Assembly: GCF_036971445.1 (NCBI RefSeq)
Contig: NC_091476.1
Coordinates: forward strand, 141,918,001-141,982,000
Reading direction: 5' to 3'
Origin: Narcine bancroftii
Lineage: Eukaryota
DNA length: 64,000 bases
Position 1 is the first letter of the stretch. Each line of letters opens with the position of its first letter. The notes beneath the pieces are model-generated. The model was not told the DNA's origin. It saw only the letters and a list, made by a program, of their open reading frames with translations, and made no database searches. Below, piece by piece: positions 2,071 to 62,955 of the stretch. A program made the position numbers and the translations under genes.

Positions 2071-2506
2071 CAGTAATAACCCTGGTATCTGGTAATTATG
2101 GCAGTTGATAGATGCCGGATAAGTGTATTTGCCAGTTGTTTGAGATTGTGTGTAGTGCGATTGGTGAACTAACTGGTGGGATGGTGCAATTTTAAACTTT
2201 TCAAAGCCAGAAACGTTGGTTATGTACCATTATCTTTGCTCTATAAAGTACACGGCCCCTGCCCACATTTTGTTCATACCTGGATGAAGGGCTCAAGCCA
2301 GAACGTTGGTCATGCACTTTTATCTTTGCTCTATAAAGTATACTGTTTGGCCTGCTGAGTTTCTCCAGTATTGTGTTTTTACTTTAACCATGGAGTCTAT
2401 GGACTTCCGTGTTTTCCTTCCTTAAACTTTTGTATTTTTTACCTATTTATTTTCCACAATTTTTTTTTGCTGCTTGCTTGTATTCTGGATAATGGAGATT
2501 TTACTA
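2071..2506. mobile_element. Tigger/pogo-like MITE, interrupted by a Penelope insertion
   Basis: TA|CAGTAATAACCCTGGTATCTGG at left and CTGGATAATGGAGATTTTACTA|TA at right: degenerate CAGTA-type TIRs with TA flanks. Confidence 0.65.
2202..2421 (+). mobile_element. Penelope-like partial-tandem pLTR with hammerhead-like motif
   Basis: Direct repeat AAGCCAGAA(A)CGTTGGT..TTATCTTTGCTCTATAAAGTA at ~2204-2252 and ~2296-2343; flanked by 10-bp TSD TTAAACTTTT (2192-2201, 2422-2431). Confidence 0.8.
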
Positions 2507-2779
2507 TAGTCCTTTCTGGAGCTGATGAAGGAGAGGGGTCTTGACCATTGCAATGGTATTACTGTGAAAATGAATTCAGTGATCAGTTTGCTTCAGAGAT
2601 TAAGGGACAGCATGTCTACAAGTGGTTAGATCTCAGCTTATGTTTCTGTCTTCTTCAAGCACAAATTCCTTCCTTTGCTGAGAGGTAATGTTGCTTCTAA
2701 AACTGTGTTTGGGATTGGTTTAGAGCGCCACTCAAACTGAGACCACAAAGTGTGATTCCGGAGACGAAGTGAGCACACT

Positions 2780-3233
2780 CATCACAGGAAAACCCCTCCC
2801 CACCATCGAGAACATCTACAGGGAGCGCTGTCCTCGGAAAGCAGCAGCAATCATCAAGGATCCACACCACCCAGCGCACTCTGTTCTCGCTGCTGTCATC
2901 AGAAAAAAGGTATAGGTGCCACAAGACTCGCACTACCAGGTTCAGGAACAGTCGCTACCCTTCCACCTTCAGACTCAATCAGAGACTTATTTAAAGACAC
3001 TTACTTTGCACATTATTTATTACTGAACATTTTTTTTCTGTATTGCACAGTTGGTTTGTTTACAATTTCTAACTTTGTTTACATTTCGCTCTTTTATATT
3101 TGTACTATATCTTTTTTTTCTTGAGTGTAGTTTACACTATTGACAAGTAGAAATTCTGTCTTGCCTGCAGGAAAAAGAATCTCAGGGTTGTATGTGATGT
3201 CATGTATGTACTCTGACAATAAATGTGAACTTT
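2780..3233 (+). mobile_element. Rex1/Babar-like LINE 3' fragment
   Basis: Encodes LPTIENIYRERCPRKAAAIIKDPHHPA, then a 3' UTR ending GACAATAAATGTGAAC; same family as 33885-34290 and 58162-58350. Confidence 0.75.
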
Positions 3234-3684
3234 GTACACTCTCCTTGTAAACTATGAATTAAATTGTATTGAGAACTTCTTCAAACAGATTTCATAATAT
3301 CACTATCCTCCACCAGCAACATCTTAGAAAAATATTGACTGGATTAAAATTTTCAATGCAATGCTTTATTAATGCCCAGAACATTCAATGAATAGAACAC
3401 ACTTTCACTTTCTGTCACTACTTACATACAAAATACCCAGCTGGGACGACTGCTATTCATCTCCTTACTGTCAGCTTTTAACTTACTAACTGAAGGACAC
3501 CTCATGGCCAGAAACTTCTGAAGAGTAAACAAACTGACTGTGTCACTTTGTTGTTCTTGTTCCTTGGAATTGTAAGGCTACTGATAATTATTCATTCTCC
3601 ATCATACTAAAGGATCACGATCTCACGAAACACAGAATCCAGAATTCTCTGCGAGCTTGCACGAAGAGCAGGCTGCTAGCAGAC

Positions 3685-3900
3685 TCAGAACTTATTGTCA
3701 TGAACATGTCACAAAGTTCATTGTCACAGTGTCACAGGGGCAAATATTGCTATAAATTACATTTTAAAAATAAATAAATTAGTGCAATAATAAGGGAAAA
3801 TGAGGTAGCATATGTAGTTCATTGTCCATTCAGAAATCTGATGGCAGAGGTGAAAAAGCTGCTCTTGTGCTGCTAGTTCCTGTACCTCCTTCCTGAAGGC
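3685..3900 (-). mobile_element. Rex1/Babar-like LINE 3' tail
   Basis: TCAGAACTTATTGTCATGAAC...CCATTCAGAAATCTGATGGCAGAGG, shared with 15640, 40008, 44930 and 63413. Confidence 0.7.
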
Positions 3901-5177
3901 ACCTGAACAAAGCAAGTATCAAGTGTAGTTGGCATTTTTCCAACTCAAATTTTAGGATAAAGAATCTATACAAGTAATAATATAATCCTGAGTAAAATTA
4001 AGTGGACATCATTTTCTTCATATTCCTTGTCTTGAAGAATATAAAGACATTTGGTATTATGCAATAAAATACCACGCTGCCCTCAGTAAAATTGGTTGCC
4101 ATCATAAGTATCCAGCGGGATATCTCTTGACTTGTCGATTTGGAATTAACCTCTTCATTATTGCCAGGTTTATTCCAACAACCTGAGTTTTAAAATCTAA
4201 AAAGTCAGTGAAATCTTCCGTGCAATTTCTGTTTTACCTTTCAAAACTCAACACATTATTACCCCCATACAACTGGAGCACAATAACTTTGGAATCTAAA
4301 ATAGTTATGGGGGGGGGGGGGAGAGGTAGGGGGAGGATGTTAAAGGAAGTAAGATACTTAATTTTAAGTTGCAAGCAACTTCATTCATGAAGTCCACCAT
4401 GGGTGAAAAATCAAAGAATAAAAATACTCGGCAGAGTTCACCAATACAACCCAGCTTTTCCCAGGTTTATGAACTCTGCATTTGTTACAAACAAATGTGG
4501 TTGGCAAATAGATTGAAGAACTACTCCCAAGGCATTGAAGTAGGTGTATTAGCCCACCAAGCTAGTTTTTAAGAAATTAGCTTAAATTTATCAGACCAGC
4601 AGTAATAATGACACATTCTGTCCAGGTCATTAGTTGTTTCTCACACACATTCTGCAGTGTATTCTTCAGACTCTCTGTCCCTTTGTTTACATATTTCATG
4701 GCCATCTCTAGTGCAAGCAAGTCACAGGTCGTACAGCACAGAAACAGGGCCTTTGACACACAACATCCATGGTGACCCTGTTGTTCATCAACACTTCTTT
4801 TATTTGCCCATGTTAAAACTAGCATGTCCAAATCCTTCGTCTTTGAAGTGATTGTATCTGATTCCACCACCACTGCCGGCAGTGAGTTCACAATATCAAC
4901 CACTCTGGGGGGTTAAAAAAAGAACCTTTCCTCACACATTCCCTTAAAACTCTTCCTCTCTCTTTTAAACCTTTGCAAACTTGTTTCTGATACCCTTACC
5001 ATGGGAAAAAGAATTCTGTCGACCTTGACAGTGTCTCAATCCTGCCACCCCTCTGCCTCCTTCCCTCCTGAGAAAACAAATGCCTATCTGATCTCTCCAC
5101 ATCCCAGAGTCCTCTGATTTAGGGAACATCCTGGTGAATCTCCTCCACACCCTCTCCAGTGCAACCATATTTTATAG

Positions 5178-5525: not shown

Positions 5526-7722
5526 CTTTTGTTTTGAAAATTTTATTTATTAATCATTATAAATCATACAGTAAAGATACAAACAAATAAAACATGATAC
5601 ATACATGATATTTTACCCCTTACAACTCCCCACCCCCTAACCTAACCCACCCACCCATCCCAACCCCCCTCTAAACCACCCCAAAAAAAAAGAAAGGAAG
5701 GAAAAGGAGGAAAGAAAGAGGAGGAGATCAGATAACATGACACTCTTCAATTAATACCATGGTTCGGAGTAACACCATCAATGCGTGGGAAAAAGATTAG
5801 TAATTCAACCCCATATATTCCAAATGCGGGCTTCAGGTTTTAACAAAAAAGGAATAATTATTACGTAAATTATGTGTTATCTTTTACAACGGAATACAAG
5901 ATCTCACTTCCAAATGTCATCGCTGAATACTGAAATTCGTCTAATTTTTCCAAGTAATTGCCAAACATTTTTGAACCACAGCTAGAACCAATCTCAAAAA
6001 AGCAATTTGAAATTTATTTAATTTTAACTCCAAGCTCAATTTCTTACTATAACCCAATAAAAATATCAAAGGTTCAAGTGAAATTTTCAATTTAAAAATA
6101 ACTTCTAAAAGTTCCTTAAGTCTACTCCAAAAAGGTTTCACCATCTCACGTAACCAAATAGAATGTAAAAAACAACCAACTTCCTTATGACATCTGAAAC
6201 ATAAATAAGAAAAAATAAACTTATATTTCCTTAATTTCTCCAGAGTTAGGTATAACTGATGAAGAAAGTTATAATGAACCAAACTATACCTTACATTTAC
6301 AATTTTAGTCATACTGTCCTCACATAGATTCATCCAATCATCCTGAGAAATAGATATGGACAAATCTTTTTCCCATTTTAATTTAGATTTATAAACATCA
6401 GGCTTAAGCATTTTATTCTGCAATAAAGCATACATCTCAGATATATATCCTTTCTTACCACCATCAGTAAGCAAAATTTCAAATTTAGACCTCCTGGGTA
6501 GCCATAACGTACACCCAAAATTATCAAACAATAATGCTTTAACTTGATAGTTAAAAAAAGAGTATTCGGATATTTCATATTTCTCTTTCATTCTATGAAA
6601 CAAAATAAAATATTCTGTTTCATAACAATCTTCTACGAGTCTCCTTTCTGTTCCCACAACTTCAGAAGTTGATTATTAAGTGTAAAAGGAAAAAGCTTAT
6701 TTTGAAACAAAGCCAAAATTTCATTTTTGAAATTCCATAATTCCACTAAATGTTTCAACACTGGCAAATTATAATTATTTAATAATGGAGAATTCCATCT
6801 ATAAATAAACCGATCCATCCTCTTCTCGCCAGTCTGAGATAATTCAATATTAGCCCATATCAAAGGTTTATCCATTTTAAATACCTTGTTAATAAATTTC
6901 AACTGTGCTGATTCATCATAATTCTGAAAAGTAGGAAGTTGCAAACCTCCTAATGCAAACTTCCAAGTTAATTTATGTAATGACACCCTTCCCATTTTAC
7001 CTTTCCACAAAACCTTCTCACCAAAGCATTCAAAGCTTTAAAAAAATGTTTGAGGAACCTTCCAAGGAATAGATTGAAAAAGATATTGAATTCAAGGAAA
7101 GATATTCATTTTAATACAATTAACATGTCCTGTTAATGTTATAGGTAAATATTTCCACCAATTCAAATCATATTTAATTTTAGACAATGAAGGTAGATAA
7201 TTCAATTCATATAAATGATTATAATTACTATCTATCATAATAGCTAAATACTTAATCTGATCCGACCACTTAAATGTAACAATATGTCTACAAAGCGTAT
7301 AATCCATTTCAGCTATAGGCATAATTTCACTCTTTTCCCAGTTAATTTTATAACCCTATACTTCACCAAACTGCTCCAATCTATCATGCAGACTCCCCAA
7401 AGATATCGAAATATTATCAGCAAACAAATTTGATTTATATTCATCATCTTTCACCTTAATACCTTTAATATTACCATCTTGTCTAATCATCTGAACCAAC
7501 GGTTCAATAATCAATGCAAATAGAGCTGGTGAAAAAGGAAAGCCTTGCCTGGTCGATCTAGATAATATAAAAGGTGAAGATACCTGTCCATTTGTCACAA
7601 CTCTTGCAGTAGGATTGCTATATAAAGCCTTAATCCAACCAATTAAAAAGGCTCAAAATTAAATTTCTTCAAAACTTTAAACAAAAACTCCATTCCACTC
7701 TATCAAAGGCCTTCTCTGCATC
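5526..7722 (-). mobile_element. 5'-truncated L1-clade LINE (ORF2 RT and C-terminus, frameshifted)
   Basis: DAEKAFDRVEW at the 5' break; RQGFPFSPALF and LFADN RT motifs (ORF 7356-7598); CFRC..HSIW zinc-knuckle (ORF 5941-6657); AATAAA/A-rich tail near 5530-5550; degenerate TSD GTTCACCACGCTG (5513-5525) / GTTCGCCACCTTG (7723-7735). Confidence 0.92.
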
Positions 7723-9004: not shown

Positions 9005-9454
9005 TCCATCCGATCCCTGACAATTTTCCTTTCACAGACTTGAAGCTCACTGGCTTTCATTGCAATGCCTGAAGGTTATGGATTCATGTTCTAGGTCAGG
9101 AAACAATGTTTCTGGATTTTCAGCATGGAACTGACAGGATGCTGTACTAGGTGAGATGTTAGCCTGTGTATGAGACATTAAAATATGGTTAGGTTACAAC
9201 TAGAGTAAGGTGCCCAGTTCGGGATGAAGGATGCTGGAGAGGATTGCACAGGTGGGGATTTTCATCTTCAAGGTTAGATTGGGCAAGCTGTGGTTCTGTT
9301 GAAAGAAAGAAAACAGGGGGAGATTTGATGGAGGTGGACAAGATTATAGTAGGTTTTGTTTGTTCAAATAGAGAGTCTAGCATGGGGTTTAAGGAAACAC
9401 GGAATCATAGTGACAGACAAAAGTCATGTGGGTTGTGAGGAAGTTTGATTTAAC

Positions 9455-9715
9455 AGAGGGGTGGAAACTGAGGGGTGGAAACTGAAGGGTGGAAACTGAA
9501 GGGGAGAAACAGGGGTAGAAACAGTGGAGGGGAATCAGTGGAGGGGAATCAGTGGAGGGGAATCAGTGGAGGGGAAACAGTGGTAGGGAAATGGGTGGAA
9601 TCAGAGGGTTGGAAACAGAGGGGTAGAAACAGAGGTGGGAAAAGGTGTGGAAATAGAGAGGAAGAAACAGAGGGGTTGAAACAGAGGCGGGGAAACAGGT
9701 GGGTGGAATCAGAGG
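9455..9715 (+). repeat. Purine-rich minisatellite, ~14-15 bp unit (GGAGGGGAATCAGT / AGGGGTGGAAACTG)
   Basis: Three perfect GGAGGGGAATCAGT units and many degenerate units. Confidence 0.9.
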
Positions 9716-10044
9716 ATGATGAAGTTCCCTCTCTGCATGTCAAGTTCAGAGGAGTTGATCAAAGCTTTCAAACTAGAATTGGATTGGCACTTGAGGAAAA
9801 ATCATTTGCAGGACAATGAATGGAATTGTTTATTGCAACCTGTACCAAAGTAGTGGAAAACTTTATTCTGCAGTTAAGTCAACCTCTACAATAGTACAGC
9901 AAGAAGAGCATTCATTAAAAACAAAATAGAGTAGGATAAGATGTTAAATCAAAAGCACAGGGTTTTGAGTTCAACAGTTACATAAGGTATCATCCATTTA
10001 AGAGTGTGATAACAGCAGGAAAGAAACTGTCCTTGGAACTGGAG

Positions 10045-10615
10045 CTGAGTAAAACACGAGTGTCTGCAGACACCATGATTGAAATAAAAACACAATGCTA
10101 GGGAAACTCAGCAGGTCAAACTGTGTACTTTAAATCCAAGATAAATATACATAACCAATGTTTCGGGCCTGAGCCCTTCTTCAAGGAATGAGCCAGAAGC
10201 AGGAAATCTCAGAAAGTCTCAGAGTTCAGACATTGGTGGCTGGGTGATGAATTCAGACCAATAAAAGGTGGTAATTTGATATGATAGAGGATGAGATAAG
10301 AATTGATCATGTTTGTGCAAAAGGAATTGGAATGGAAAGACTCTGACTTCTTTCAGCTTATTCCTTGAAGGAGGACTCAGGCCCTGAAATGTTGGTAAAT
10401 AAATACTGAAAAGACCGGCATTTCAGTGTGCTTTTATGACAATCACAGTGTCTGCAGCATTTCGTGTTTCACTCAGAGCATAATGTAGACAGGCGCCCTG
10501 TGCCTAGACAGTTTCTGCCTACAATTTGTCCAAAAAGTTGGTTATGTATCTTTATCTTTGCTATATAAGGAACATTGTTTGACCTGTTGAATTTCCCCAG
10601 CATTATGTTTTTACA
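10045..10615. mobile_element. Composite Penelope-like insertion (inverted pLTR pair plus extra pLTR piece) inside a Rex-like LINE remnant
   Basis: GAGTAAAACACG..CTGCAGACAC (10047) is inverted to GTGTCTGCAG..CGTGTTTCACTC (~10473); hammerhead-like motifs at 10150-10190 (-) and 10359-10398 (+); flanking direct repeat TGGAACTGGAG (10034-10044, 10616-10626). Confidence 0.75.
10150..10190 (-). ncRNA. Minimal type-I hammerhead ribozyme-like motif (PLE pLTR)
   Basis: Minus strand reads CATTCC-TTGAAGA-A-GGGCTCAGGCCC-GAAA-CATT-GGTTATG: core YUGANGA, stem II, GAAA, minimal stem III and stem I. Confidence 0.55.
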
Positions 10616-12529
10616 TGGAACTGGAGGTGAGTGTTTCCTAACTTGTATCTGATGCCTAGCAGTGGTGGGGGAAGTGGGTGTGGAGAAGAGAGTGTGAGGG
10701 AGGTGGGATGGGTCTGTTAATGTGCTGGCTGGTTTCCCAGTGCAGCAGGAGGTATCAACAGGGTTGATGGAGGGAGTTTGGTTTGTGACATGTCTTGAGC
10801 CCTGTTCAGAACTCTCTGCGGTTTCTTCAGAGAAAAACCAAGAGAATGAATCCACATATCTGGCTCAGCACAGAGCAGCGTAGACTCATTGTGGCATTTG
10901 TGGAAACTTAGCCCTGTCCACTCTCCTGGAGAATGCAGGAGACAGTGGTGGATTAACTACTACCAGGGCCCAAGCTGAGCTTTAGGAAGGCTCCCTCTGA
11001 CCTTGCCCCACCCTTTGTTGAATAGAATAAAGTGAAATTGTTCCATTTATTAACATTATCATTACATATTACCCTTGGGTGTGATGCTTTCACATATTTT
11101 AAATTTATCCACTGGGTATGTGCTGGGATTACACCAGTTGGTGTTTGGTTGGAGGAGGGCAGGAAAGACTTCAATAAAATGTCTGCTACCCCCCCCCCAA
11201 ACAATTTGAAAAGTTTGTTATTTTCAAAAGGATAAATAAAATCATTTCTTCAAAATAAGTCTTGATACAAAATAATACAGGAGAAGGGAGATTCTTTTTT
11301 AAAAAAGTAAACCTCCTGTGAGCAACGCTGCATAAGCTGAGCTCTGCTACAGGAGGCAGACCTCAGACTTGGACCCGTGCACAAACGTGAGCATTGATTG
11401 ACAGGTTGCATTGGGATCGAGTCCCTACTGCTGATTGACTGTGAAAGTGGTACTTCCCCAACCCTTGATTGATGGGTGGGTCCAGGACTAACACAAGCCC
11501 ATATTGACAAGTGGTTACATTGGTGTACCAGTGGATGCACTCAAGTCTCTAGGGATTTGTAACCGAGAAAGTCCTCTTAGTCTGAAATAAGGTAAAGGAC
11601 GGCATATTTTACAAGATAAACATTTTCATCTCATTCAGCAGATAAATAACGTCTGTTATCAAGTGACCTGATTTAATTACATGATTGATCAGGTCCATGG
11701 ATTGTGTAGTGAAATCCTACACTAACATGTATCTAAGTGCAGTGCACCTGATAGATGATCTATGGAAATCGTTCTTCTGTACACTAAATGCATGTACACA
11801 CACACATGCAATATGGCTTTTTTTTTAAGCAGAGCACTGATACAATACTTTGGAAATTGTTATAGTACTTCCACACTCATTCATAAATTTCCCCACGGCG
11901 GCCCCGTCTCACACAACAATCTTCTCATCTGTATAGAAGGGCTGCTTTGAAATGGCATTATTGCTTTATTCAATCCGCAGGGGACAGACATGGGCCTCGA
12001 GGTTCCTAGTCCCAATTTCTCATAACATGCATTCATGCTGAAAACAAAATCTTGATGCATTTTGCAAGAGCACCTTGATCAGCAACACTGTACACTTATA
12101 TGGTCCACTTTAACATGCCGAGAGCCAATAAATTCTACTCCCACCTCCCACCCCCCCCCCCCTGGAATTATAGTGGATGAAAAGATAAATGAGAAATCAT
12201 AGGAAGTGGTTAGGAGCAAGGGGGAAACAGTAAGTAGACCAATCTTGCAGGAGTGTCCAGGTCTTCCTGTACAGTCTGTCTACAGTCTGAAATGCCGGAG
12301 GGAGGTGAAAATGTGGTGGATGGAGGAAGTCCATGGCAGGTATAGCTCCCACTCTCATCTCCCCCAAATGAGTTCTCAAACCACCCCTCCCACCCCCTGC
12401 TGTTACCCTAATGCCCCTCATTAGATTTCTTCTAATGCTGACGGACCCCCCCTAACTTCCAGGCCCCTAGGCCACCACTCAGCCACCACTGGCAGGAGAG
12501 TCCTTCTGGCCACCTAGCCAATAACAGGT

Positions 12530-13304: not shown

Positions 13305-13475
13305 GAAATGTGAACGTCTGCAGATACTGTAGTAAAAGCACTCCTAAATGCTGGAGGAATTCAACTTATTCCTTGAAGAAGGGGTCAGGCCCGAAACGTC
13401 CTCAATATATATCTTTGTCTCCTATAGAAGCTGAAAGACCAGCTGAGTTCCTCCAGCATTTCAGTACATTGCTTG
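13305..13475. mobile_element. Penelope-like inverted pLTR pair
   Basis: AAATGCTGGAGGAATTCA (13346) is inverted to TGAGTTCCTCCAGCATTT (13444), enclosing a hammerhead-like motif. Confidence 0.75.
13368..13403 (+). ncRNA. Minimal type-I hammerhead ribozyme-like motif (best-preserved core)
   Basis: ATTCC-TTGAAGA-A-GGGGTCAGGCCC-GAAA-CGTC: intact GAAACGUC with palindromic ACGU stem III; the 3' side of stem I is mutated. Confidence 0.55.
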
Positions 13476-15637: not shown

Positions 15638-15950
15638 CATCAGAATCAGAATTTATTGTCATGAACATGTCATGAAATTGGTTGTTTTGTGGCAGCGTCA
15701 CAAGTGCAGGCATTTCCGTAAAAAGCATTTAAAAACATATATAAATTAATACAAAAAGAAGAGAAAGTGAGGTAGTGTTTACAGTTCATTGACCATTCAG
15801 AAATCTGATGGTGGAGGGGAAGAAACTGTTTTTGTACCATTGGGTGTTCGTCTTCAGGCTCCTCCAGTGTCTCCTTCCAAATGGTAGCAGTGAGAAGACG
15901 GCATGGCCTGGATGGTGAGGGTTCTTGAGGGATAGTCTTATGCTGCATGT
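15638..15950 (-). mobile_element. Rex1/Babar-like LINE 3' fragment
   Basis: (CAGAAT)n tail, TTTATTGTCATGAAC, and a decayed C-terminal coding remnant of the family. Confidence 0.75.
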
Positions 15951-16202: not shown

Positions 16203-17270
16203 AGAGTGAAACACAAACCTCTGCAGCCACTGTGATTGTAGTCAAAACACAGAAATACTTAAGGACCTCAGCAGGTTTCACAGCGTCCATAGGAGGTAAA
16301 GATATATTACTAATATTTCGGGTTTCGTGGCTTCCCTTTCACCACTATCAACTCAGCCCTCACCCGTATATCCTCCCCCTCTGCCCCCAGATGCAAAAAA
16401 CATAGAATCTCCCTCATGCTCACCTACCAGCCCACCAGCCTCTGCATCTAACACATTATCTACTAGAATTTCCGACACTGACTACAGAATCTCACCACCA
16501 GACATGTTTTATTCTCCTCCCCTCTGCAGGGAAAGCTCCCTCTGTGATTCCCTTGGGCACTCAACCCTCCCCAACCATCGCACCCCCAGAATCTTCCCTT
16601 TGCCCGGAAGATGTGCAACACTTATCCTCCCTCACCATGGTCTGGGGCCCCAAATAGACCTTTCAAGTGAAGCACACTTCACTTGTGCACCCAGATGACT
16701 TGTTTACAGCATCTGGTGCTCCCTTTGTGGCATTCTCTCCATCAGAGAGAGACTGGTTGCAGACTGGGAGATCACTTCACTCAGCACCTCTGCTCTGTTT
16801 GCAACTACAGCGACCTCCCAGTAGCCAACCATTTCAATTCTGGGTCACACTCGCTTACATGTCTGACAATGGCCTTGTGTACTATTCCACCCTGACCACC
16901 CACAGATTGAAGGAACAACACCTTATTTTGTGTCTGAGCACTCTCTAGCCAAATGGCAAGAATATTGACTTGATTGCTTTTCATGAAACTTGCTTGCCTT
17001 TTCTTTCCCCTACTCCTTTCCTGTCTTTCCAGTTCTTCCGCTCACCCAGCCATCCCTCCTCCCCCTCATTGCAGCTGTCCCCTCCCTCCTTTCTCCACCC
17101 TATCATCTCCTGTATTTTCCACCCTCTCTTTCCCTCCACCCCCACTCTTTTATTCAAACTCTTGCTGGCTTTTTCTCGTACCTTGATGAAGGGCTCAAGC
17201 CCAAAACATCAGTTGTGTATCTTAACTGTTGATACATAAAGGATACTGACTTGCTGAGTTGTATTTTTAC
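16203..17270 (+). mobile_element. Penelope-like element 3' part: inverted pLTR (16203-16325), GIY-YIG remnant, pyrimidine tract, pLTR
   Basis: Across frames: HFTC..IWCS.CG..ETGCRLGDHFTQHL..PVANHFNS..HRLKEQHLILCLSTL*PNG, typical of a PLE GIY-YIG C-terminus; hammerhead-like motif at 17177-17217. Confidence 0.85.
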
Positions 17271-17575
17271 AAAAATTTCAGGCCTGAGCCCTTCCTCAAG
17301 GTATGAGTGATAAAAGACAGGTGCCTGAATTAAAGGCTGAGGGAAGAATGGGAGGGGGAGGAGTCCAGACCAACAAACAAAAGGCGTTGATTGGATATGA
17401 TAAGAGAGCAGGAGATAAATGATTTTGGTTCCGTGAAAGGAGAGAGAGGGAAAGGGAGGGGGAGAGAGAGAGTGAGAGAGAATGACAGAACCAAGGAAAG
17501 GGGACCGAAGGTGGGTGGGGAGGTGTTCTAATGGAAACCAGACAAGTCGATGTCAATGCCATCCTGTTTGTGGGT
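17271..17575 (-). mobile_element. Penelope-like 3' fragment in opposite orientation
   Basis: Reverse CATACCTTGAGGAAGGGCTCAGGCCTGAAA, purine tract, and reverse GGATGGCATTGACATCGAC (P.G.NID end of the ORF); homologous to 62400-62955. Confidence 0.8.
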
Positions 17576-22062: not shown

Positions 22063-22370
22063 ATGGCTGGTTGCATCAGTGCCTGGTATGGAAGCACCAA
22101 CTCTCAGGATAACAATAAGCTCCAGAGGGTTGTTAACTCGGCCTGTGACATCACACACACCAGACTTCACTCCATCGAGGACATCAACATGAGGCGGTGT
22201 CATAAAAAAAGCAGTCTTTATCCTCAGACTCCCACCTCCCAGGCCATGTCCTCTTCACTCTGCTACCATTGGGGAGAAAGATATAGGAGCCTAAAGATGA
22301 GAACTCAACAGCACAAGGGCAGCTTCTTCCCGCTGCCATCAGATTCCTGAAAAATCAATGAACCAAGATT
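22063..22370 (+). mobile_element. Rex1/Babar-like LINE 3' fragment (resumes at ~23241-23275)
   Basis: ORF 22063-22350: GCISAWYG..KLQRVVNSA..RYRSLK..SFFP. Confidence 0.85.
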
Positions 22371-23354: not shown

Positions 23355-23720
23355 AATTAAAAACACAATGTTGGAGAAACTCAGCTGGTCAAACAGTGTA
23401 GCAAAGATAAAGATACATAAGCAACATTTTGGGCTTGACCCCTTCGTCAAGGTATGAACAATGTCGGCAGGCAATTGAACGAAATGGTAAAGGGTGGGGC
23501 AGGGGTAGGAGCGCAGACCCACAGGCAGGAAGTAATAGATGGATGAGGGAGGGAGAGCACAGCAGCAGGCAGGGAGAAGGATGGATGGCTCTTGGAACGG
23601 AGAGTGAAGGGAGTAGAGAGCTGGAGGAAAGGAGGCAGAGGGATAGGGAAGAGAAGGAGAATGGAGAGTGATCGATCAGAAACCGGAAAGGTTGGTAATC
23701 ACATTGGAGGAACTCGAGAA
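23355..23720 (-). mobile_element. Penelope-like pLTR and purine tract
   Basis: Reverse CATACCTTGACGAAGGGGTCAAGCCCAAAATGTTG (23416-23456); homologous to 48800-49100. Confidence 0.8.
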
Positions 23721-27760: not shown

Positions 27761-28479
27761 TTGTTATCTCCTCTTCACCCTTAGTCTTGAAAAAGAGTCC
27801 TGAGCCGAAACGTTGGTGGACTATTTCAGTTCCTGGATGCTTCCTGCTTGGCTAAGTCCCTGCAGCTTCTCATTATATGCTGAGCGGCTGTGGATCAAGC
27901 TGATAGTCTCTGCACTTCTGGTTATGAGTCTGTGCCTTTCAACCCTTTCTCAGGACCCGTGGATTTACTCCCGTAAAACCATGGCAATATCGAAAAGAGC
28001 TTTTACCAATTAACTAAATGGCAGCAGGCGGTAAATAGAGAAAGGAAAAAAAAAACAGAAATGTGAGAATGTCTCGCACACGAGGACTCCAGGACTGCAG
28101 CATTCATAGTTTAATGTAATCAAATGGATACCTGAATAATTACAGGATGTGTGAGTGTGTAAGTAATATGTACCACAAGGGCAGTCAGAAGAATCTAGAG
28201 TGCTCAGTGGAAAACACGAGCTGCTGGTCACAGCTGCACGAGGGCTGCAGTCAGGAGGAGAAGGATAATGTAGGATAGGAAAAATACAGTCTGACAGGGG
28301 AGATAGATGGAGGCATGGTGTAGAGGCAGGCAGAGACAAAAGATTAAAACGAGAGGTGGTGGGGAGAATGAATAGCACTTTAAACGAATCACACAAAGGC
28401 AGTGAGCATAGCAAAATGAATCAAGGAGAACAGGAGATAATTTGTGTAGGATTTCGTTCCTTATCAGTTTCCATTTCAG

Positions 28480-36575: not shown

Positions 36576-36579
36576 TCCT

Positions 36580-36820: not shown

Positions 36821-38469
36821 TGGAAGCACTTAAGTTCTCATGAACGCACTTAAAAAAATTTGCCCTTGGCACTAAGGACGTCTGATTCAATATTGGGGAA
36901 ATAAAGTCTTCCACTACTGACATCTACATTGCTTTTACAACTTTCCATAATCGCATATCTGCTCCTCCTCCAGTTATTAGTGTAGTCAGAATGACATGTG
37001 ACCACTGCTCCCTGGACTGTAAACCCTGGTGACCTCTATTTCCCACCCACACCAAACCATCGATGGAAATTGCTGAAAAGCTCAATATTTGCTTCAACAA
37101 AATTCTAAATGCCATCAACTCCTGTGAATAGAACGTAGAATGCTACAGCATAGTACAGGCCCTTTGGCCCTCAGTGTTGTGCCAATCTATATATTCCTAC
37201 CAAAAAAAAATACTAAACCCTCCCTACCTTATAATCCTTGGTGTTTTTCTTTCATCCATGTGCCTGTCTAAGAAATAAAAGAATAATCCATGCTTCACAT
37301 AAATCTCAAATTAAGCAGTTAATTCCACAAAAATAAGTAACCATGTAATGTCTAATTCACTGCAGCAGTTCCAGGTTTTAATCATATGAACACAGTGAGA
37401 TCTAAGTTTGGACATGAGGTCAGTAAAGTCTGTACTGCCTTTGAATTAATCTTTAAGAATGGTGGGTTTATTTATTTGCTGTCATTCCACACAAAATATG
37501 TTTACACTGAAGACTTAAATATGTGGTCACTACAAATGTTTGGTTGGAGACCTTGTGATCTGAGGCCAGACTTTTGAGTGTTTGGGGATCTGGGACTGAT
37601 GAAGACTGTCAGCCTCTGTACATTCTTGATTTGTGCAGATTCTCAGCAACTCCCTGCAAATGACCATGTTAGGATGCCATGTTAATACTTCAAGTGAGTT
37701 ATGCCGATTGCTTTGAGCTGTTTCCAGTTTTGAGTGGACCATTGCTGACCCGTGAATCATTGTGTTGGACCCAGATAGAGATCACAGGAATGAGGCTCAT
37801 GTGCTCTGTGCATTCTGAGGAGCAGTGGGTGGCCACTGCTCACTGTACTTTCCACGGCTGTGACTGCCCTGTGGAAAAAGGCAGGCATTTCAGGTTAACT
37901 TCTTCCAGTATCATCATCAGTAGCTACAGCTGAGAAATGAAAAGGTCTACGAGTGACGAGCTCATGATTTTCCCTTTGGTGACGTGATTGGATCCATTGA
38001 AGTGCACAGGGTAATGGTGTCATTGGTAAACCTCGAAACAGCTGCAGTGTTCCATATAAGACCTGGGAACAAGCTCCAAGGTCCAAAGGTGTCAACGACT
38101 GGTGTTTTGGGGAGAAGGGCATCAGAGTTAATGAAATGTTATTACAGCATCAGCAACATGGGTTCAAATCCACCGCTGTTGGTAATAGTAAAAACACAAA
38201 AATTGCTGGAGGGATTCAACAGGTCTTGCAGCATCTCTAGGAGGTAAAGATATATTACTGACATTTGAGGCCTGAGAAATTGATAGGTTTGCTCCTGTGG
38301 AATCTGTCTCGGGCCAAATGGCCTTATTTTGTGTTGATCAAAGTCCCAAAATGAGCTGCAGGTACATTGTCAAACAAAATTTACCACCAACTGAGAAAGA
38401 CCTGGATCTTCTGTTGAGTGGCGACTGCTCACTCGCCTTTGGACAATGGTATTTATATTACTGTTATAT

Positions 38470-45323: not shown

Positions 45324-45545
45324 GAGTAAAACTCAAAAGTCTGCAGACAGCGCGACTGAAGTAAAAACACAAGCTGCAGAAAATAAACAGTGCAGTTTAT
45401 AGAGCAAAGATAAAGATGCATAACCAAAGTTTCAGGCTTGAGCCCTTCATCAAGGTTCCTTGATGAAGCCTGAAATATTGGTTATGTATCTTTATCTTTG
45501 CTCTATAAACTACACTGTTATACCTCCAGCATTGTGTTTTTACAA
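45324..45545. mobile_element. Palindromic Penelope pLTR pair nested in an older minus-strand PLE (~45235-45900)
   Basis: Arms 45386-45455 and 45458-45519 are reverse complements around TTCATCAAGG-TT-CCTTGATGAA; the flanking 45550-45900 reads as a reverse GIY-YIG remnant. Confidence 0.8.
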
Positions 45546-46071: not shown

Positions 46072-46105
46072 GTCAACATTTCAGGCCAAAGCCCTTCGTC
46101 AGGAA
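46072..46105 (-). ncRNA. Hammerhead-like motif with canonical C3 core (second PLE family)
   Basis: Minus strand TTC-CTGACGA-AGGGCTTTGGCCT-GAAA-TGTTGAC. Confidence 0.45.
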
Positions 46106-46574: not shown

Positions 46575-47110
46575 AGGGACAGATCAAAGAATGCTGGAGG
46601 AACTCAGCAGATCACACAACATATTTTATATAGTGAAGGTACATAAATTATGTTTTGGCCCTGAGACTTTCATCAAGGTAATGGGGTGAGAGGCAGTGAA
46701 GAGCACAGGCCCAGAAACACTAGGTCATAGGTGGATATGGGTGGGAGGGCATGAAGGAGAGTGATGGGGGAATGGGGGAGGGGGAAGGAAGTAAGGGGTT
46801 GGAGAAGACAGAGAGAGGGAGGGGAGGGATGTTGCAGGCTGGGGAGGCTGGAGGGAGACAGAGGCAGGCAAGAGAGGTCAGAGGGTGGAGGTGGCAGGCA
46901 GGAGAGGTCAGGGAGAGTTGGGGGGGCAGAGATGAGAGAGTCTGAGGGCCAGTGGGAAGAAAGGGGGTGCTCAGAGGAGTAGATGGGTGGTGAGCAAGGA
47001 GAGAGGTAAGGGGATGGGGAAGGGTAAGGTAGATATTGTAATTCTAGATTAGCTGTGATCAAGTTATGGATACTTGATGTCTGTATTCTACCTATTTGCA
47101 ATTGAATTAG
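46575..47110 (-). mobile_element. Penelope-like pLTR with expanded purine/G-rich tract
   Basis: ATGCTGGAGGAACTCAGCAG; reverse ACCTTGATGAAAGTCTCAGGGCCAAAAC; GGAG-rich repeats at 46740-47030. Confidence 0.7.
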
Positions 47111-48339: not shown

Positions 48340-49955
48340 GGGCACAGGGTCCAGGTGTGCAGGAGATTGCTGCGCTCTGGGTTCTCCATGGGATCTGAAC
48401 ACACTTCCATTATTCCAGTGCAACCATTCGCCCCCTTGGTACCTTCCCCTGTGGCCGCAGGGAGTGCCACTCGTGTGCCCATACCTCTTCCCTCACTACT
48501 ATTCGGAGCCACAAACTGCTCTTCACTTGTGTATTCGTGGGAGTTATCTACTGCATCTGGTGCTCCTACTGTGGCCTTCTCTAAATTGAAGAGACAGTAC
48601 GTAGACTGGGCGATCGCTTGGCTGAGCACCTTTTCTCTGGCCGCATCAGTGGCAGGGACCTTCCAGTGGCCAACCATTTCAACTCAGTGCCCCACTCCAA
48701 TCCTGACATGTCTAACCATGGTCTCATGTACTGTCCAACCAAGACCACTCATAAATTAGAGTAGCCACACATTGTTTCATCTGGGGATTCTCCAACTAGA
48801 TGGCATTAACGTCGATTTCCGGTTTCTGCTCGCCCACTCCCTATTCTCCCTTTCTTCCCCATCCCTATGTCTACTTTCCTCCAGCTCTCCACCTCCTTCC
48901 ATCTCCATTCACAGAGCCATCCCTCTCCCCTATTTGCTGATGTGCCCTCCCTCCCTTATCTACCTATTACCTCCCGTCTTTGCAACTGTGCTCCCCACCA
49001 CTATTGTGTTTGTGTACCTGCCTACATGTTGCTTATACCTTGATGAGGGGCTCAAGCCCAAAAAGTTAGTTATGTATCTTAATTTTTGCTGTACAAAATA
49101 CAGAATAACTCCAATTATCCAAAATGGTTGGGACCAGGACTCTGTCAGATAAACTTTTTTTTCAGAGAACTGGTCGTTTTTTAAAAACAGCCCAGTAGCA
49201 ACAGCTAATTATCTATCAATGTTTAAATAACAACAAACAACAAGGGAAGGCTTTTTTAAACATTAAAATAATGTTTAATTCTCACCAAAATAAACGATGG
49301 CTGCCACCAATCACCGAGCCGAACCCAACATGGCCGCTGATCACCGAGACCACCCACCCACTGCTGCCAATCCCCGACATGAACCCACCACTGCTGGTAA
49401 ACCCGGGGAGGCTTCCAGGGTTGTGGAACACACACTAGCGAGTCGGCAGTCTCCTGTCTACCCAGTCACCGGACCACCCGATGCCAGAGTCCTGCGCTGA
49501 AGTCCCGCATCTGAATCCTCCCCTAACCCTACTGCACATGCACACCAGAGAAGTAGACTGAGGGGAGTCAGCATCGGCGCCTGGTGTGCCGAGGATACGA
49601 GGGAAAGGGAAGGAAATGCCACTGAGCCAGAGGTACTGCTTCTGTCCAGTAGGCCACTCTCCATGATGACACTAGGACAAGGGATTCTTCCAACCACTTG
49701 CAGCTGGGAGACAGTTGCACGCAGTTTGAGAGGGAGAGTTGGAGAGAAAAATCAATAGGGGAAGGTAAAGGAGAAATGGAAATAAAGAGGGGCGGGAGTT
49801 ACCTGAAACAAGGACAAATTCAGATAAATGAGGATTTTAGAGAATCTGATTTCGGATAATTAGAGTTGTCCTGTACACTGTTTGACCTTTTGAGTTTCTC
49901 CAGCATTGTGTTTTCACTTCAACCACTGTGTCTGCAGACTTGTATGTTTTACCTC
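48340..49955 (+). mobile_element. Penelope-like 3' part (GIY-YIG remnant and pLTR) interrupted by a MITE
   Basis: FTCVFVGVIYCIWC..RRLGDRLAEHL..LPVANHFNS..LFHLGILQLDGINVD; hammerhead-like motif at 49034-49074; pLTR resumes at 49874-49955. Confidence 0.87.
49101..49873. mobile_element. Tigger/pogo-like non-autonomous DNA transposon
   Basis: TA|CAGAATAACTCCAATTATCCAAAAT ... ATTTCGGATAATTAGAGTTGTCCTG|TA; internal imperfect ~30-bp GC-rich repeats at 49295-49400. Confidence 0.8.
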
Positions 49956-54450: not shown

Positions 54451-55059
54451 CAGGAGTATGCCAAGTGTACACCAAGTCCTGTTCAAACCCGTTTCAAAAA
54501 AAAGCCATGGCATGTAACGTGATATGAAGTGATTGTGATGCACTGGTTTCCAGTGCAAGTCATATGGCTAATACATTTTCCACCTGTCTCTGAGTTTACA
54601 TCAGACATATATTGGCCCCCTTTCATTTTATGTATTGAAAGCATGCTGTTTTCCATACTCCAAGTCTTGGTTTTGCTTTCTCTCTGTGCTGTTTTCCTTT
54701 TACTTCCTCATTTTTTTTGTATCGTTTTTCCTCTAATCGTCTCTTCCTTGAATATTCCATCCCCCACTCATTCCCCAGCACCCCCCCCCCCCCCCAAATC
54801 ATGTGCCTTAATTTTCTCTTCTTTCTGATATGGGCTTCTTCATATTTTGGGGTATTGTGATTCCAATATTTAACGAAACAGTAGCATTAGACTTTGCTCA
54901 GTTAGGTTGGAATTGACCTCGAGAGTGGAAGCCATGAGCAATAAGGGGCAGTTCAGGAAGAAAGTGGTCATCATTCTAAGTATTTGAGACACCCCAAGCC
55001 TAACATTCTCACCTTGCATTGTCACTGAACTGATTGTCTGCCTTCATTAATGATTACGA

Positions 55060-57473: not shown

Positions 57474-58161
57474 GGCAGGTATAAGAGAGCTAGGCTTGCT
57501 TCTAAGCTTTTGATCACCTTTGAAGTCTATAATTGCCATTTTTCAACATGAGGACCAGAGTTGTGCCAATGAAAGTCAAAAAGGCCTATAATGAGGCTGA
57601 AAAACAAGAATAAACTTGTAAGAAACATCGTCCTAGCCTTTGAATTACCAAAATCAACTATTTGGAACACCTGTAAGAAGAAAGAGCGTACTGCTGAGCT
57701 CAGCAATTGTGAAGGGGCTGATTGGCCAAGACAGACCTTCACTGCTGATGGCAGAAGAATTCTCATCATAATGAAGAAAAATCTCCAAATGTATGTCCAA
57801 CAGATTAGAAACATTGTTCAGGAGGCAGATGTAGATGAGTCAACGACTACTGTCCGCAGAAGGCTTAATGAACAGAAATACAGAGGCTATTAGCAAGATA
57901 TAAGATGTAACATCTGCAAGATGCAAACCACTATTAGCCACAGAAACAGGATGGCCAGATTACAGTTTGCCAAGAAGTTTTTAAAAGAACCTGCAGTATT
58001 CTGGAAAAAGGCGTAAATGAACTTCCCAAGATCCGAAGCATACCACCTCGTTTATGTGGTGTTATGGCCTGGGCGTGTATGGCTGCCACAGGTACTGGCG
58101 CACTTATCTTTACTGCTGCTGGCAGTAGCAAAATGAATTCTAAGGTGTATAGAAACATCTT

Positions 58162-58350
58162 TTATTTCAAATTTCAGATTTATTGTCAGAGAATATACAT
58201 AACATCACATACAACCGTGAGATTCTTTCCTGCGGACCAGGCAGAATTACTACTTATTGGTAGTGCAATAAAAAAAAACTGTACACATGTAAATAAGTAA
58301 AGAAATGTAAACAGCTGAATGTGCAATACAGAGATAAAATAAACAATCAA
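58162..58350 (-). mobile_element. Rex1/Babar-like tail inserted in the Tc1 transposase
   Basis: TTTCAGATTTATTGTCAGAG..CATACAACC.TGAGATT matches 33885-34050; the transposase resumes after it. Confidence 0.85.
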
Positions 58351-59149
58351 TGTAGTGCTCAAGTTCGAGCAAATGCCTCCAAACTCACCGGACGATGCTT
58401 CATCCTACAGCAAAACAATAATACCAAACATACTGTTAAAGCAATAAAGGAGTTTTTCAAAACTAAAAATTGGTAACTTCTTGAGAGACCAAATCAGTCA
58501 TCCAATCTAAATCCAATTGATCACACCTTCCATATGCTGAAGCGAAAACTGAAGGGGACAAGTCCCCAAAACAAACAGGAGCTGAAAATGGCTACAGTAG
58601 AGGCCCGGCAGAGCATCACCAGAGAAGATACTCAGTACTTGGTGATGTCAATGAATCACAGACTTCAAGCAGTCATTGTATGCAAGGGATATGCCACAAA
58701 GTACTAAACAAGACTACTTTAATATATATACCACTGAGATGCCCCAAACCGTATGGTGCCCTGAAATTGGGGAACTATATATAACAAATGCTATAATTTC
58801 TACATGGTCAAACCAAAATGCACACAAATACCCTTTAATAAAATCTACAATGTGCACTTTAATCACATATGAATTTGTTTGTCTACAAATTTAAAATGTG
58901 AAGCACAGGTGCAAATAAAGGAAAAAAAATGCCTTTATCCCAATCATTATGGAGGGCACTGTACCTGGTTGGGCAGATACTCATTGGACTTAGTATGTGA
59001 AGAATTAGTGGATATCATAATAAAATTTAAAGAATTCTAATAGGTTTTGACAGGGTCCATGCCAAGAAAATGTTTCTCCTGTTTCGGAAATCTTGAACCA
59101 AGGGACTTCGTTTCATTGAACTTAAGAGATTAAATAGAAATCTAGTAAA

Positions 59150-59939: not shown

Positions 59940-60440
59940 ATTCTTATTCCCTCCCACATCTTCCATCCTGTACCCACCGTTCTGCTCCCTCCCCCACCCT
60001 AAACCCACCATTCTTCTCCCTTTTCACCCTGCACCCATGTTCCTCTCTCTCCCACTATCTCCCACCCTGTGCCCACTGTTACTCCCCTCTTCCACCCTGC
60101 ACCCACTGTTCCTCCCCCTCCCACCCTAAACTCACCATTCCTCCCCCTCTCCTCACCCACCTTAAATCCATTGTTCTTCTCTCTCTCCTCTCTCATCCTG
60201 TACCCACCGTTCCTCACCCCCTCCCATCCTGCACCCACCATTCTTCCACCTCTCCTCACCCACCCTAAATCCGCTGCTCTTCTCCCTCTCCTCTTCCACT
60301 GCACCCACTGTTCCTCTCCCTCTCCCACTACACCCATCATTCCTCTCCCTTTCCCACTAAGATTTCTCCTTTTTCCAATCCTGGTGTCATCAGCTAGTTC
60401 ATTTGGTTGAATAACCTCCCTCACCCTTCCCACACCGCCC
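59940..60440 (+). repeat. C/T-rich degenerate minisatellite
   Basis: Recurring CCTGCACCCAC.GTTCCTC and CCCACCCTAAA modules. Confidence 0.85.
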
Positions 60441-60655: not shown

Positions 60656-61155
60656 GAAAAAAGGAATGGAGGTGGTGAAGAGGCAGAAAAGAAGTGAAAA
60701 TAAAGATAGAAGATGGCCACGTTGGACTAAATGACTATAAACATTAATGGAATATATAACCAAGTTTAAGTGTATCCCATTGGGGAAAAAAAATCACATA
60801 TAATTTAAAAGACAAAGTTATAATGATTGGGGAAACCTGGAAACCCTATATGGAACATGGCAGAAAGAGCAGGCCTAGGACTCCACCACCTAAAATGATA
60901 AGAAGATAAACACGATCAGATTTAATGTGAATAAGTAGATGATGCATTTTTTTTGTTTGTATTCCTTTTGTATAAAGATATTGTTCTATTGTATTTTATA
61001 TGTCCAATATTTACTGTTTTTGGAGGGGGGTGGGAAGGGGGAAAGGATAGATGGGGGAAAAAAGAGAAAATGTCACTGTGAATATTTAAAGAGATGCACC
61101 TGTAAATATATTGGTTGATATGGTTCATAGTGCGATAAATAAAGAATTACAAAAA
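60656..61155 (+). mobile_element. L1-clade copy with ORF2 start fused to ORF2 end and 3' UTR
   Basis: TSD AAA(G/T)TTCACTGGAAA (60641-60655, 61156-61170); MATLD*MTININGIYN (endonuclease start) then CIPL..KITYNL, G-rich tract, AATAAA and poly(A). Confidence 0.75.
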
Positions 61156-61459
61156 AAATTTCACTGGAAAACATATCATGTCCTGAATTATACAATTATT
61201 TTGGAGGTCTTCCTTACTGGGAAGCAGACATGGTAGCAAAATGGCCTCCTTCTCTATCTGATGTACAGTGAATATTTAGGGCTTGCTGTCAGCTCTCTCA
61301 CCTACCCTGAACATTCTCTTTTTCAATTTTTGCATAGTCATCGTGTTATTTACTGCTACTGCTGTCCTGTCGTATTAAGATCACTACTTTCAACCTGGAG
61401 AGGGTTGTGATCAAGAGCTAACCATCATATGGTCTCCATTGATGGCTTACATGTCCTTC

Positions 61460-61730
61460 CATTGAACATAGAACATTACAGCACAGTGCAGGCCCATCAG
61501 TCCTCGAGGTAGTGCTGACCCATATATTGCTTTTAAAAAAAGTACTCAATCCTCCCTACCCTGTAATCTTCTATTTTTCTTCCATCCAGGTGCCTAAGAG
61601 TCTCGTAAATCCCCCTAATGTTCCAGCCTCCACCACCATCTCCGGCAAGGCATTCCAGGCTCCCACAACTCTGGGTAAAAAAAACGTACCCTTGAATTTC
61701 CCTCCCTTAACTTTGACCAGATGTCCTCAG
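61460..61730 (-). mobile_element. CR1-like LINE 3' fragment
   Basis: GAACATAGAACATTACAGCACAGTGCAGGCCC; homologous to 30960-31230. Confidence 0.85.
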
Positions 61731-62399
61731 CTGTTGCTTTCTGCTTTTATTTCTTTATGCAATGTTTAAAACAAAATGACCTTCTTTTCCAATCAACTAG
61801 TGGCTAGCCACATGATGGTTAAAGGATTCATTATTTTGTTTTATTTGCACGTTAAGTCCGAATCTGTGACAGTTAAGTTACCACTGCATAAGTTTGTTTA
61901 AAATATCCTAAATAGCTTATATATTATTCAACAACCCCACCCCACCCTCACATCTGGTGTGAACTAAAAGCTGTAACCCAATCTTATAGATATTGTTCGC
62001 AAACTGCTGGACCTTCACTGTCCTGTTTCTTGACATTTAATGAGTGTCTCATTTGGGTAACAGACTCCTCATTGCTCCTGGGGATCTGTAAATCTTTGTG
62101 TTATCATGACAACATTGGCTTTATGGCAGGTGATGCCTTAAGGATATACCCAGCTGTGCTAAACCATACCACAGAAATCTGCATTCACCAAATGGTTTTA
62201 AAAATCACTCGGAGTTAAAACAAATGAATGTATGTTAATAATTTTGTGTGATTATTGGATTTTGTTGCACAGAATTGCTGGAAATGGCTCTGATCCTCCC
62301 TGCTCTGCAAAGATTATGGTGTACGGATCGACTATCATGTTACTGAGAGCTCCTTCCCATCTGCTCGGCTTGCTGCTGTAACAAAGAACACAGCATCGA

Positions 62400-62955
62400 G
62401 CTCACCCTCCATTGTCACCGATTGCTTCAGAACAGCTCCTACAATGGATCCCCCTACTCATATCAATTCACCGCTCCGCTCCCTTGCTGATGTGCCTGTC
62501 CATGGTCCCATGCACTGTCAGACTGAGACTGCTTGCAAATTGGAGGAACAACACTTCATATTCCATCCTGGGACCCTCCAAATGGATGGTATTAATGTTG
62601 ACCTCTCTGGTTTCTGTTAAACCCCTCTCCCCATCTTTCCCTATGTCTCCTTTCTTATCTCTCTTCTCTTTGTCTCCTTTCACAGAGCCAAAAACTGCTC
62701 CTCTTCCCCAATCAATTCTCACCTTTCCTCTCTCCTGTACTTTTACCATATCTAATTAACGGCTTTTATCTGTTAGTCTGTACTCCTCCCTCTCCCATTC
62801 TTCTCTTTTCACCAGGCTTTTTAAACCTGCCTTTCCCTCTCCCACGTGCCTGCATTTTACTCATACCTCGAGGAAGGGTTCAGGCCTAAAACATTGGTTA
62901 TATGGACACTGCAAGGCTGGGTGAGTTCCTCCAGTATTTTGTTGTGCTTTTACTC
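62400..62955 (+). mobile_element. Penelope-like 3' fragment
   Basis: KLEEQHFIFHPGTLQMDGINVD end of GIY-YIG; pyrimidine tract; hammerhead-like motif at 62862-62902. Confidence 0.82.

What the first reader, a model, noticed from the sequence alone, without database searches (positions are those of the whole stretch)
2275..62902. About a dozen minimal hammerhead-ribozyme motifs in Penelope pLTRs, mostly a U3 / extra-A variant
Seen: a recurring motif, consensus CATACC-TTGATGA-A-GGGCTCAAGCCC-GAAA-CGTT-GGTTATG, at ~2275(+), 10150(-), 10359(+), 13368(+), 17177(+), 17276(-), 23416(-), 27785(+), 45418(-), 46072(-), 46642(-), 49034(+) and 62862(+). It folds as a type-I hammerhead: stem I CAUACC/GGUUAUG, core YUGANGA, stem II, GAAA, a palindromic ACGU mini-stem III and a UH site. 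Established: Penelope-like elements carry minimal hammerheads in their pLTRs, proposed to act as dimers. Inference: the dominant family here has U at core position 3 and an extra A after A9, while the 46072 copy has canonical CUGACGA. At roughly one motif per 5 kb, this is a large ribozyme load that a host pre-mRNA would carry. Most copies have core mutations (often CpG decay) and are probably inactive.
Basis: partly seen in the sequence, partly recalled or inferred. Interest (0 to 1): 0.7.

Follow-up and report, generated by a model that had tools for sequence, protein, structure and literature searches.

The report
Decayed Penelope hammerheads with wobble core
These thirteen repeats are damaged tail ends of an abundant Penelope-type jumping gene, each carrying a small RNA motif of a known self-cutting type; the family's unusual core letter was inherited and likely kept under selection, but none of the copies here is predicted to cut.

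Summary
All 13 sites are real. They are 3' ends (pLTRs) of old Penelope-like elements, probably Neptune-type, in a probable cartilaginous-fish genome; RT and GIY-YIG remnants lie upstream of two of them. The minimal type-I hammerhead parse holds. U3 opposite G8 is a lineage trait: 2,161 intact U3·G8 cores genome-wide against 205 C3-G8 and 186 with A8, while homologues in metagenome contigs are 125 C3 to 2 U3. Across six U3 subfamily majorities, 0 of 22 constrained positions change, against 48 of 84 flank columns, and stem I shows two compensatory swaps. The motif was therefore likely under selection after U3 fixed. Neither variant is new: the extra nucleotide after A9 is standard, and a U3·G8 PLE hammerhead is listed for Saccoglossus in Cervera and De la Peña 2014 (Fig. 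S3). The 'ribozyme load' idea is not supported: 0 of 13 window copies and 0 of 58 sampled copies are intact, about 0.5% are intact genome-wide, and no coding exon was found. Cleavage by U3·G8 is untested. This scan noted the same family and C3U variant before, on other DNA of this genome.

The parts
2204..2255 (+). 5'-truncated pLTR copy starting inside stem II; forms a 90-nt partial tandem with the next copy; lacks the 5' half of the core
   Evidence: (D5)
2281..2307 (+). hammerhead positions 3-17, U3; U4G and a 1-nt deletion at the stem II/GAAA junction; pLTR runs to about 2400
10157..10184 (-). hammerhead, U3, A7; G16.2A; best-preserved copy in the window (one core mismatch, stems intact)
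10365..10393 (+). hammerhead, U3; A9G, C15.2U, 1-nt insertion in stem II
10530..10616 (+). 5'-truncated pLTR copy lacking the 5' half of the core
13373..13400 (+). hammerhead, U3, A7; complete core but stem I 3' strand lost and one stem II mismatch
16204..16325 (-). inverted 5'-truncated pLTR at the 5' end of the PLE fragment that follows
16296..16988 (+). broken PLE ORF remnant (RT thumb to GIY-YIG region, stops and frameshifts)
   Evidence: tblastn, E down to 2e-21
17183..17210 (+). hammerhead of that element, U3; G12A, G16.2A
17272..17299 (-). hammerhead, U3, G7; C11.1U, C15.2U, G16.2U; separate insertion facing the previous one
23423..23450 (-). hammerhead, U3, C7; G12A, C15.2U; element remnant 23351-23664
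27787..27814 (+). old, diverged hammerhead, U3; G8A, stem II broken (weak hit, 16.9 bits)
38188..38276 (-). 5'-truncated pLTR copy starting in stem II
45426..45453 (-). hammerhead, U3; C11.1U, G16.2U; left arm of an inverted pLTR pair
   Evidence: (I19)
45455..45529 (+). right arm of the inverted pair; stem II largely deleted
46075..46102 (-). hammerhead of an older group with C3 (CUGACGA) plus the extra A; C11.1U, C15.2U
46649..46676 (-). hammerhead, U3; G10.1A, G12A, G16.2A, stem I lost
48438..48776 (+). broken PLE ORF remnant: Cys-rich linker (CxxxxCxxC) and GIY-YIG-like region
49040..49067 (+). hammerhead of that element, U3; extra base G, G12A, C15.2A; pLTR tail resumes at 49873-49938
62868..62895 (+). 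hammerhead, U3, G7; U4C, C11.1U, G12A, G16.2A; element remnant 62459-62943

Best explanation
The motifs are decayed minimal hammerheads at the 3' ends of 5'-truncated Penelope-like retrotransposon copies, and the inherited U3·G8 core likely stayed under selection as a weak, dimer-dependent and probably protein-assisted ribozyme in the active elements, while the copies in this window are predicted to be dead. Shown: identity as PLE ends, U3 dominance, family-level conservation limited to hammerhead-constrained positions, stem I compensation, core damage in every window copy. Inferred: insertion by target-primed reverse transcription from the RNA 3' end, which explains why most copies keep only the pLTR end; pairing of two ACGU palindromes into a shared stem III; cleavage after H17 in tandem precursor RNA; neutral CpG decay after insertion. 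Also inferred: U3 arose by insertion of one U that moved the old C3 into stem I, and it is predicted to keep stem I in register.
For: 17 of 20 top RT loci have a same-strand pLTR hit downstream, and 15 of the 16 that include core positions have U3. Homologues of a locus ORF carry RVT_1 and, in 6 of 37, GIY-YIG; the best named hits are shark proteins. Genome counts: U3·G8 2,161, C3-G8 205, Y3-A8 186, controls 0. Among six U3 subfamily majorities only N7, one loop base and H17 vary: 0 of 22 constrained vs 3 of 6 free positions (Fisher p=0.006) and vs 48 of 84 flank columns (p=2e-7). Stem I pairs 2.3-1.4 and 2.6-1.7 swap A-U/U-A and C-G/U-A between subfamilies defined by distal flank; on 54 distinct natural copies each has 12 double changes, with 4 of 500 shuffles reaching the paired fraction and 10 of 500 the covariation score. 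Swapping U3 to C in silico lowers the predicted stem I closing-pair probability in all 7 U3 majorities, e.g. 0.91 to 0.21. PMC11167929 reports a protein-assisted PLE hammerhead.
Against: No cleavage data. In a pairwise mutagenesis of a type III hammerhead, all single and double mutants in the CUGA region other than the C-G swap had low activity (PMC9901934), so U3·G8 should be weak. In the anole PLE, catalytic mutants did not affect insertion in vitro and no reads ended at the cut site. Only 1 of 295 tail-bearing copies starts at the predicted cut site. Many loci were chosen by exact core patterns, which inflates core conservation within those copies. The shuffle control ignores relatedness; one slid control (-3) scored a higher covariation (0.127 vs 0.108), and RNAalifold predicted stem II only. 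Stem II inner pairs show no family-level covariation (28 and 42 scattered double changes).
Confidence: 0.6

Rival explanations
1. U3 abolished useful catalysis; the fold was kept for a non-catalytic role (binding site for the PLE protein, RNA folding or a promoter overlap), and these families spread without cutting.
For: Low activity of CUGA-region mutants; hammerhead cleavage dispensable for insertion in vitro; hammerhead-less Naiad PLEs proliferate (10.1101/2021.04.23.441226); no pile-up of copy ends at the cut site; no compensating U3-A8 family arose.
Against: Variation among U3 subfamilies falls only on N7, a loop base and H17 (always U or C), the pattern that catalysis predicts. A protein or promoter site has no obvious reason to follow it.
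Confidence: 0.3
2. C3-G8 is retained and the core has a one-base U insertion after C3, with stem I shifted by one base, so that there is no wobble at all.
For: Relative to an upstream anchor, U3 majorities carry one more base than the C3 majority F5; natural core insertions exist (PMC3088659).
Against: All U3 majorities fix GG after H17 and pair CC/GG directly; the shifted register gives mismatches at the second or third pair in F3, F9 and F10, and the compensatory swaps fit the unshifted register.
Confidence: 0.06
3. The copies form an active ribozyme load that cuts or regulates a host pre-mRNA.
For: High local density (14 per 64 kb); one run shows spliced minus-strand contigs at about 49.3-54.3 kb.
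Against: 0 of 13 window copies and 0 of 58 flank and random copies are intact; monomers need a partner and cleave poorly; orientation is mixed (8 plus, 6 minus); no Pfam hit except one transposase fragment among 300 of 334 non-repeat ORFs.
Confidence: 0.04

Closest known systems
Minimal type-I hammerheads (min-HHR) in pLTRs of metazoan Penelope-like elements (Cervera and De la Peña 2014, PMC4209133; main text parts 1-2 of 4 and supplement parts 1-2 of 3 read)
   Same: Core spacing, unpaired base between 9 and 10.1, G10.1-C11.1, palindromic 15.2/16.2 with no loop 3, position downstream of the RT-EN ORF, mostly solitary truncated copies. Fig. S3 lists a PLE-linked Saccoglossus kowalevskii (1) motif with U3, G8 and the extra A, and an Acropora Neptune motif of the same build.
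   Different: Here U3·G8 is the majority state of a whole vertebrate PLE lineage (about 10:1 over C3). The text of the paper discusses only U3-A8 (Schistosoma), and no cartilaginous fish is among the Fig. S3 rows that I read.
Neptune-type EN+ Penelope-like elements (10.1101/2021.04.23.441226, passages read)
   Same: RT followed by a CX2-5CxxC linker and a GIY-YIG-like domain, 5' truncation, inverted 5'-truncated pLTR copies.
   Different: No intact ORF and no full unit between two direct pLTRs among 20 long loci; clade not placed by a tree.
Poseidon PLE hammerhead of Anolis (PMC11167929, passages read)
   Same: PLE hammerhead whose 3-8 pair matters; model for protein-assisted cleavage.
   Different: Canonical C3-G8; different clade.
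Non-LTR retrozymes (10.64898/2026.07.22.740005, abstract and most of Results read)
   Same: Non-coding hammerhead repeats related to PLE pLTRs.
   Different: These copies are dispersed PLE ends with ORF remnants, not tandem arrays; only one 90-nt partial tandem with one incomplete core.

Membership tests
min-HHR of metazoan PLEs | Core U4 G5 A6 N7 G8 A9 ... G12 A13 A14 A15.1 ... U16.1 H17 | tested here: met
   Met in all subfamily majorities and in 2,366 exact genomic copies; complete in only 1 of 13 window copies
min-HHR of metazoan PLEs | Watson-Crick pair 3-8 (C3-G8 or U3-A8) | tested here: not met
   U3·G8 in 2,161 vs C3-G8 in 205 and A8 in 186; the same wobble is listed for one published family
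min-HHR of metazoan PLEs | Unpaired base between 9 and 10.1, and G10.1-C11.1 pair | tested here: met
   A at that site in 66 of 70 unbiased copies; G10.1 in 65 of 70, C11.1 in 41 of 70 with 26 decayed to T
min-HHR of metazoan PLEs | Palindromic 15.2/16.2 without loop 3 | tested here: met
   ACGU in all majorities; covariation at this pair not tested
min-HHR of metazoan PLEs | Stems I and II supported by covariation | tested here: inconclusive
   Two compensatory swaps in stem I; stem II invariant among U3 families and so uninformative
min-HHR of metazoan PLEs | Self-cleavage as a dimer | not testable with these tools
   Needs an in vitro assay
Penelope-like element (EN+) | RT plus C-terminal GIY-YIG ORF upstream of the repeat | tested here: met
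   ORF remnants at 16296-16988 and 48438-48776; homologues with PF00078 and PF01541; direct Pfam hits weak, RVT_1 E=0.003 at best
Penelope-like element (EN+) | Direct pLTR pair flanking a full ORF | tested here: inconclusive
   0 of 20 long loci; 14 of 20 have the 3' pLTR and 4 of 20 an inverted upstream copy
Neptune clade | CX2-5CxxC linker between RT and EN | tested here: met
   Found at window 48438 and in 3 of 20 loci; shared with Nematis
Neptune clade | RT phylogeny | not tested
   No reference PLE set at hand
Non-LTR retrozyme | Tandem arrays of hammerhead-bearing units | tested here: not met
   Dispersed copies; one 90-nt partial tandem at 2204/2294

The most novel reading that the evidence does not exclude
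A vertebrate Penelope lineage fixed a U3·G8 wobble core through a one-base insertion that turned the old C3 into the closing pair of stem I, and then kept a working ribozyme through several subfamilies and a very large expansion. U3 trades chemistry for correct folding and needs the element's protein, which makes it a natural test of whether Penelope elements need their hammerhead to cut.
Probability: 0.3. Interest if true: 0.55.

Novelty: new member of a known kind. Interest (0 to 1): 0.3.

Why it matters
The role of hammerheads in endonuclease-bearing Penelope elements is still unclear. A lineage that amplified to roughly 180,000 recognisable copies with a core predicted to be weak offers a ready comparison: if U3·G8 dimers cut, the tolerated core is wider than mutagenesis suggests; if not, catalysis is dispensable while the fold is kept. 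C3-only descriptors would also miss about 90% of the intact motifs in this genome. The window copies themselves are ordinary dead repeats.

Tried and rejected
Rfam scan: no hammerhead family; weak miRNA hits come from inverted pLTR pairs. Search for a U3-A8 family: 186 matches, many in C7 (CpG) context, read as decay. Search for stem II covariation at 10.2/11.2 and 10.3/11.3: 28 and 42 scattered matches, no family. Copy 5' ends at the predicted cut site: 1 of 295; the pile-up at +59 marks a motif shared with other families. Excess of 5' ends just upstream of the core: 54 of 250 within 7 nt, about twice the rate further upstream, but the method cannot separate truncation from divergence and 46 of 70 short copies lie near an inverted or tandem partner, so inconclusive. 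Host gene: 300 of 334 non-repeat ORFs of 45 aa or more scanned with Pfam, only a DDE transposase fragment hit; flanks were not scanned for genes. RNA: no RNA holder listed for 24100-30000; three same-species contig sets were laid on 40 of 64 kb and cannot show ends or strand. Full-length element: none among 20 loci. Papers not held, so not read: Lünse et al. on PLE hammerhead dimers, Przybilski and Hammann 2007 on the 3-8 pair, Martick and Scott 2006; these may hold U3·G8 data. Searches for U3·G8 activity found no direct measurement in the held library. One supplementary file of PMC4209133 (an index page) was unreadable and part 3 of the PDF was not read.
Full report
Observation. All 13 sites carry the motif on the stated strand. 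A profile trained on 60 genomic copies from outside the window gives 14 core-covering hits in 64 kb and none in the reversed window; shuffles scored at most 5.2 bits with the first profile. Twelve of 13 have U3. The copy at 46102-46075(-) has C3 and also the extra A. About ten more partial copies exist. Rfam has no matching hammerhead model.

What it is. An exact 26-base motif occurs 897 times in the 3.33 Gb genome, with 0 for the reversed control. Open frames upstream of such copies contain RT and GIY-YIG-like sequence. Of 20 top RT loci, 17 have a same-strand pLTR hit downstream, and 15 of the 16 that include core positions have U3. A search with one locus ORF returned 37 longer homologues, most with RVT_1 and 6 with GIY-YIG; the best named ones are shark proteins. 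Direct Pfam hits on the broken ORFs were weak. In the window, broken ORF remnants lie at 16296-16988 and 48438-48776, directly upstream of two hammerheads; the second has the Cys-rich linker typical of Neptune and Nematis PLEs. Inverted pLTR copies at 16204-16325 and 45340-45529 match the known PLE insertion pattern. No intact ORF or direct pLTR pair was found in 20 long loci, so the families look old. The host is probably a cartilaginous fish (inferred).

The U3 core. With the rest of the motif intact, the genome holds 2,161 U3·G8, 205 C3-G8 and 186 A8 copies. In 70 copies not chosen by pattern, position 3 is T in 55, A in 8, C in 6 and G in 1. Clustering gave ten groups; the U3 groups separate from three older C3 or mixed groups (support 0.99, unrooted; median divergence 0.07-0.26 vs 0.25-0.40). 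Among six U3 majorities (a seventh, of 3'-truncated copies, was dropped) only N7, one loop base and H17 vary: 0 of 22 constrained positions vs 3 of 6 free ones and 48 of 84 flank columns. Stem I is two C-G pairs, a one-base bulge and up to four more pairs; two of these swap in compensatory fashion between subfamilies. On 54 distinct natural copies the structure reached 79.8% paired (4 of 500 shuffles as high) and a covariation score of 0.108 (10 of 500), but one slid control scored higher, the shuffles ignore relatedness and RNAalifold kept only stem II. Stem II is invariant among U3 families and uninformative. Many loci were picked by exact core patterns, which favours core conservation. In silico, C in place of U3 lowers the probability of the stem I closing pair in all seven U3 majorities. 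U3 majorities carry one more base than the C3 majority F5 relative to an upstream anchor, which suggests origin by a U insertion (inference, F5 is heterogeneous).

Activity and load. None of 13 window copies and none of 58 flank and random copies has both an intact core and intact stems. G12 survives in 32 of 70 and G16.2 in 27 of 70 unbiased copies, as CpG decay predicts. Density is 14 per 64 kb in the window, 35 per 200 kb in the flanks and 33 per 600 kb in 60 spread samples, about 180,000 recognisable copies by extrapolation. Only 918 match a fully intact pattern, about 0.5% or one per 3.6 Mb; this is a lower bound limited to these families. No host coding exon was found. One of three guessed-RNA contig sets shows three spliced joints on the minus strand at 50.2-54.3 kb without a long ORF. 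The load idea is therefore not supported.

Mechanism. Most likely, active elements made tandem precursor RNA in which two minimal hammerheads paired through ACGU and cut slowly after H17, helped by the element's protein; reverse transcription from the 3' end left mostly short ends, which then decayed. The dimer model and low in vitro activity come from PMC4209133, protein assistance from PMC11167929. Against catalysis: CUGA-region mutants are weak in a type III hammerhead (PMC9901934), cleavage was dispensable for insertion in vitro, hammerhead-less PLEs thrive, and copy ends do not pile up at the cut site (1 of 295).

Comparison with the known. The extra base after A9, G10.1-C11.1 and the palindrome are published consensus features. 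U3-A8 is published. U3·G8 with the extra A appears for a PLE-linked Saccoglossus family in Fig. S3 of PMC4209133, without comment in the text that I read. Searches found no activity measurement for U3·G8; three relevant papers were not held. Earlier notes of this scan describe the same family and C3U variant elsewhere in this genome and related 3-8 variants in other genomes; these are unchecked and are not counted as support.

Verdict. Real, and a new member of a known kind. The window copies are ordinary dead repeats; the remaining interest is the lineage-wide wobble core with signs of continued selection. Interest 0.3.

Noticed in passing
window 49274-54600 (-): Contigs of one guessed-RNA run show GT-AG type joints 50215/51685, 51996/54280 and 52157/54280 on the minus strand; the exons have no long ORF, so possibly a spliced non-coding transcript.
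   Followed up: partly
window 17139-17343 and 45386-45519: Oppositely oriented pLTR copies form long predicted hairpins that give weak Rfam miRNA hits, far below gathering scores.
   Followed up: partly
window 40495-40971 (-): RVT_1 fragment (E 1.8e-10) of another retrotransposon, with related repeats at 15638-15929, 22064-22365 and 63533-63852.
   Followed up: no
window 5941-7037 (-): Two open frames of 243 and 134 aa that look like the end of a LINE ORF2 (recalled resemblance; no Pfam hit).
   Followed up: no
window 57938-58704 (+): Decayed DDE transposase fragment (DDE_3, E 8.6e-4).
   Followed up: no
window 9438-9727 and 59970-60354: A 14-bp G-rich minisatellite and a C-rich tandem repeat of about 100 bp period.
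   Followed up: no
pLTR about 60-90 bases downstream of position 3, e.g. window 2345-2370: A short motif near the pLTR 3' end is conserved across U3 and C3 families and may form a small hairpin; 40 tail-only hits start there.
   Followed up: no
L299-L419 (metagenome contigs): Many canonical C3 minimal hammerheads with the same spacing and well-paired stem I, in several families.
   Followed up: partly
window and 200 kb of flanks: Local pLTR density is 3- to 4-fold above the genome sample.
   Followed up: partly
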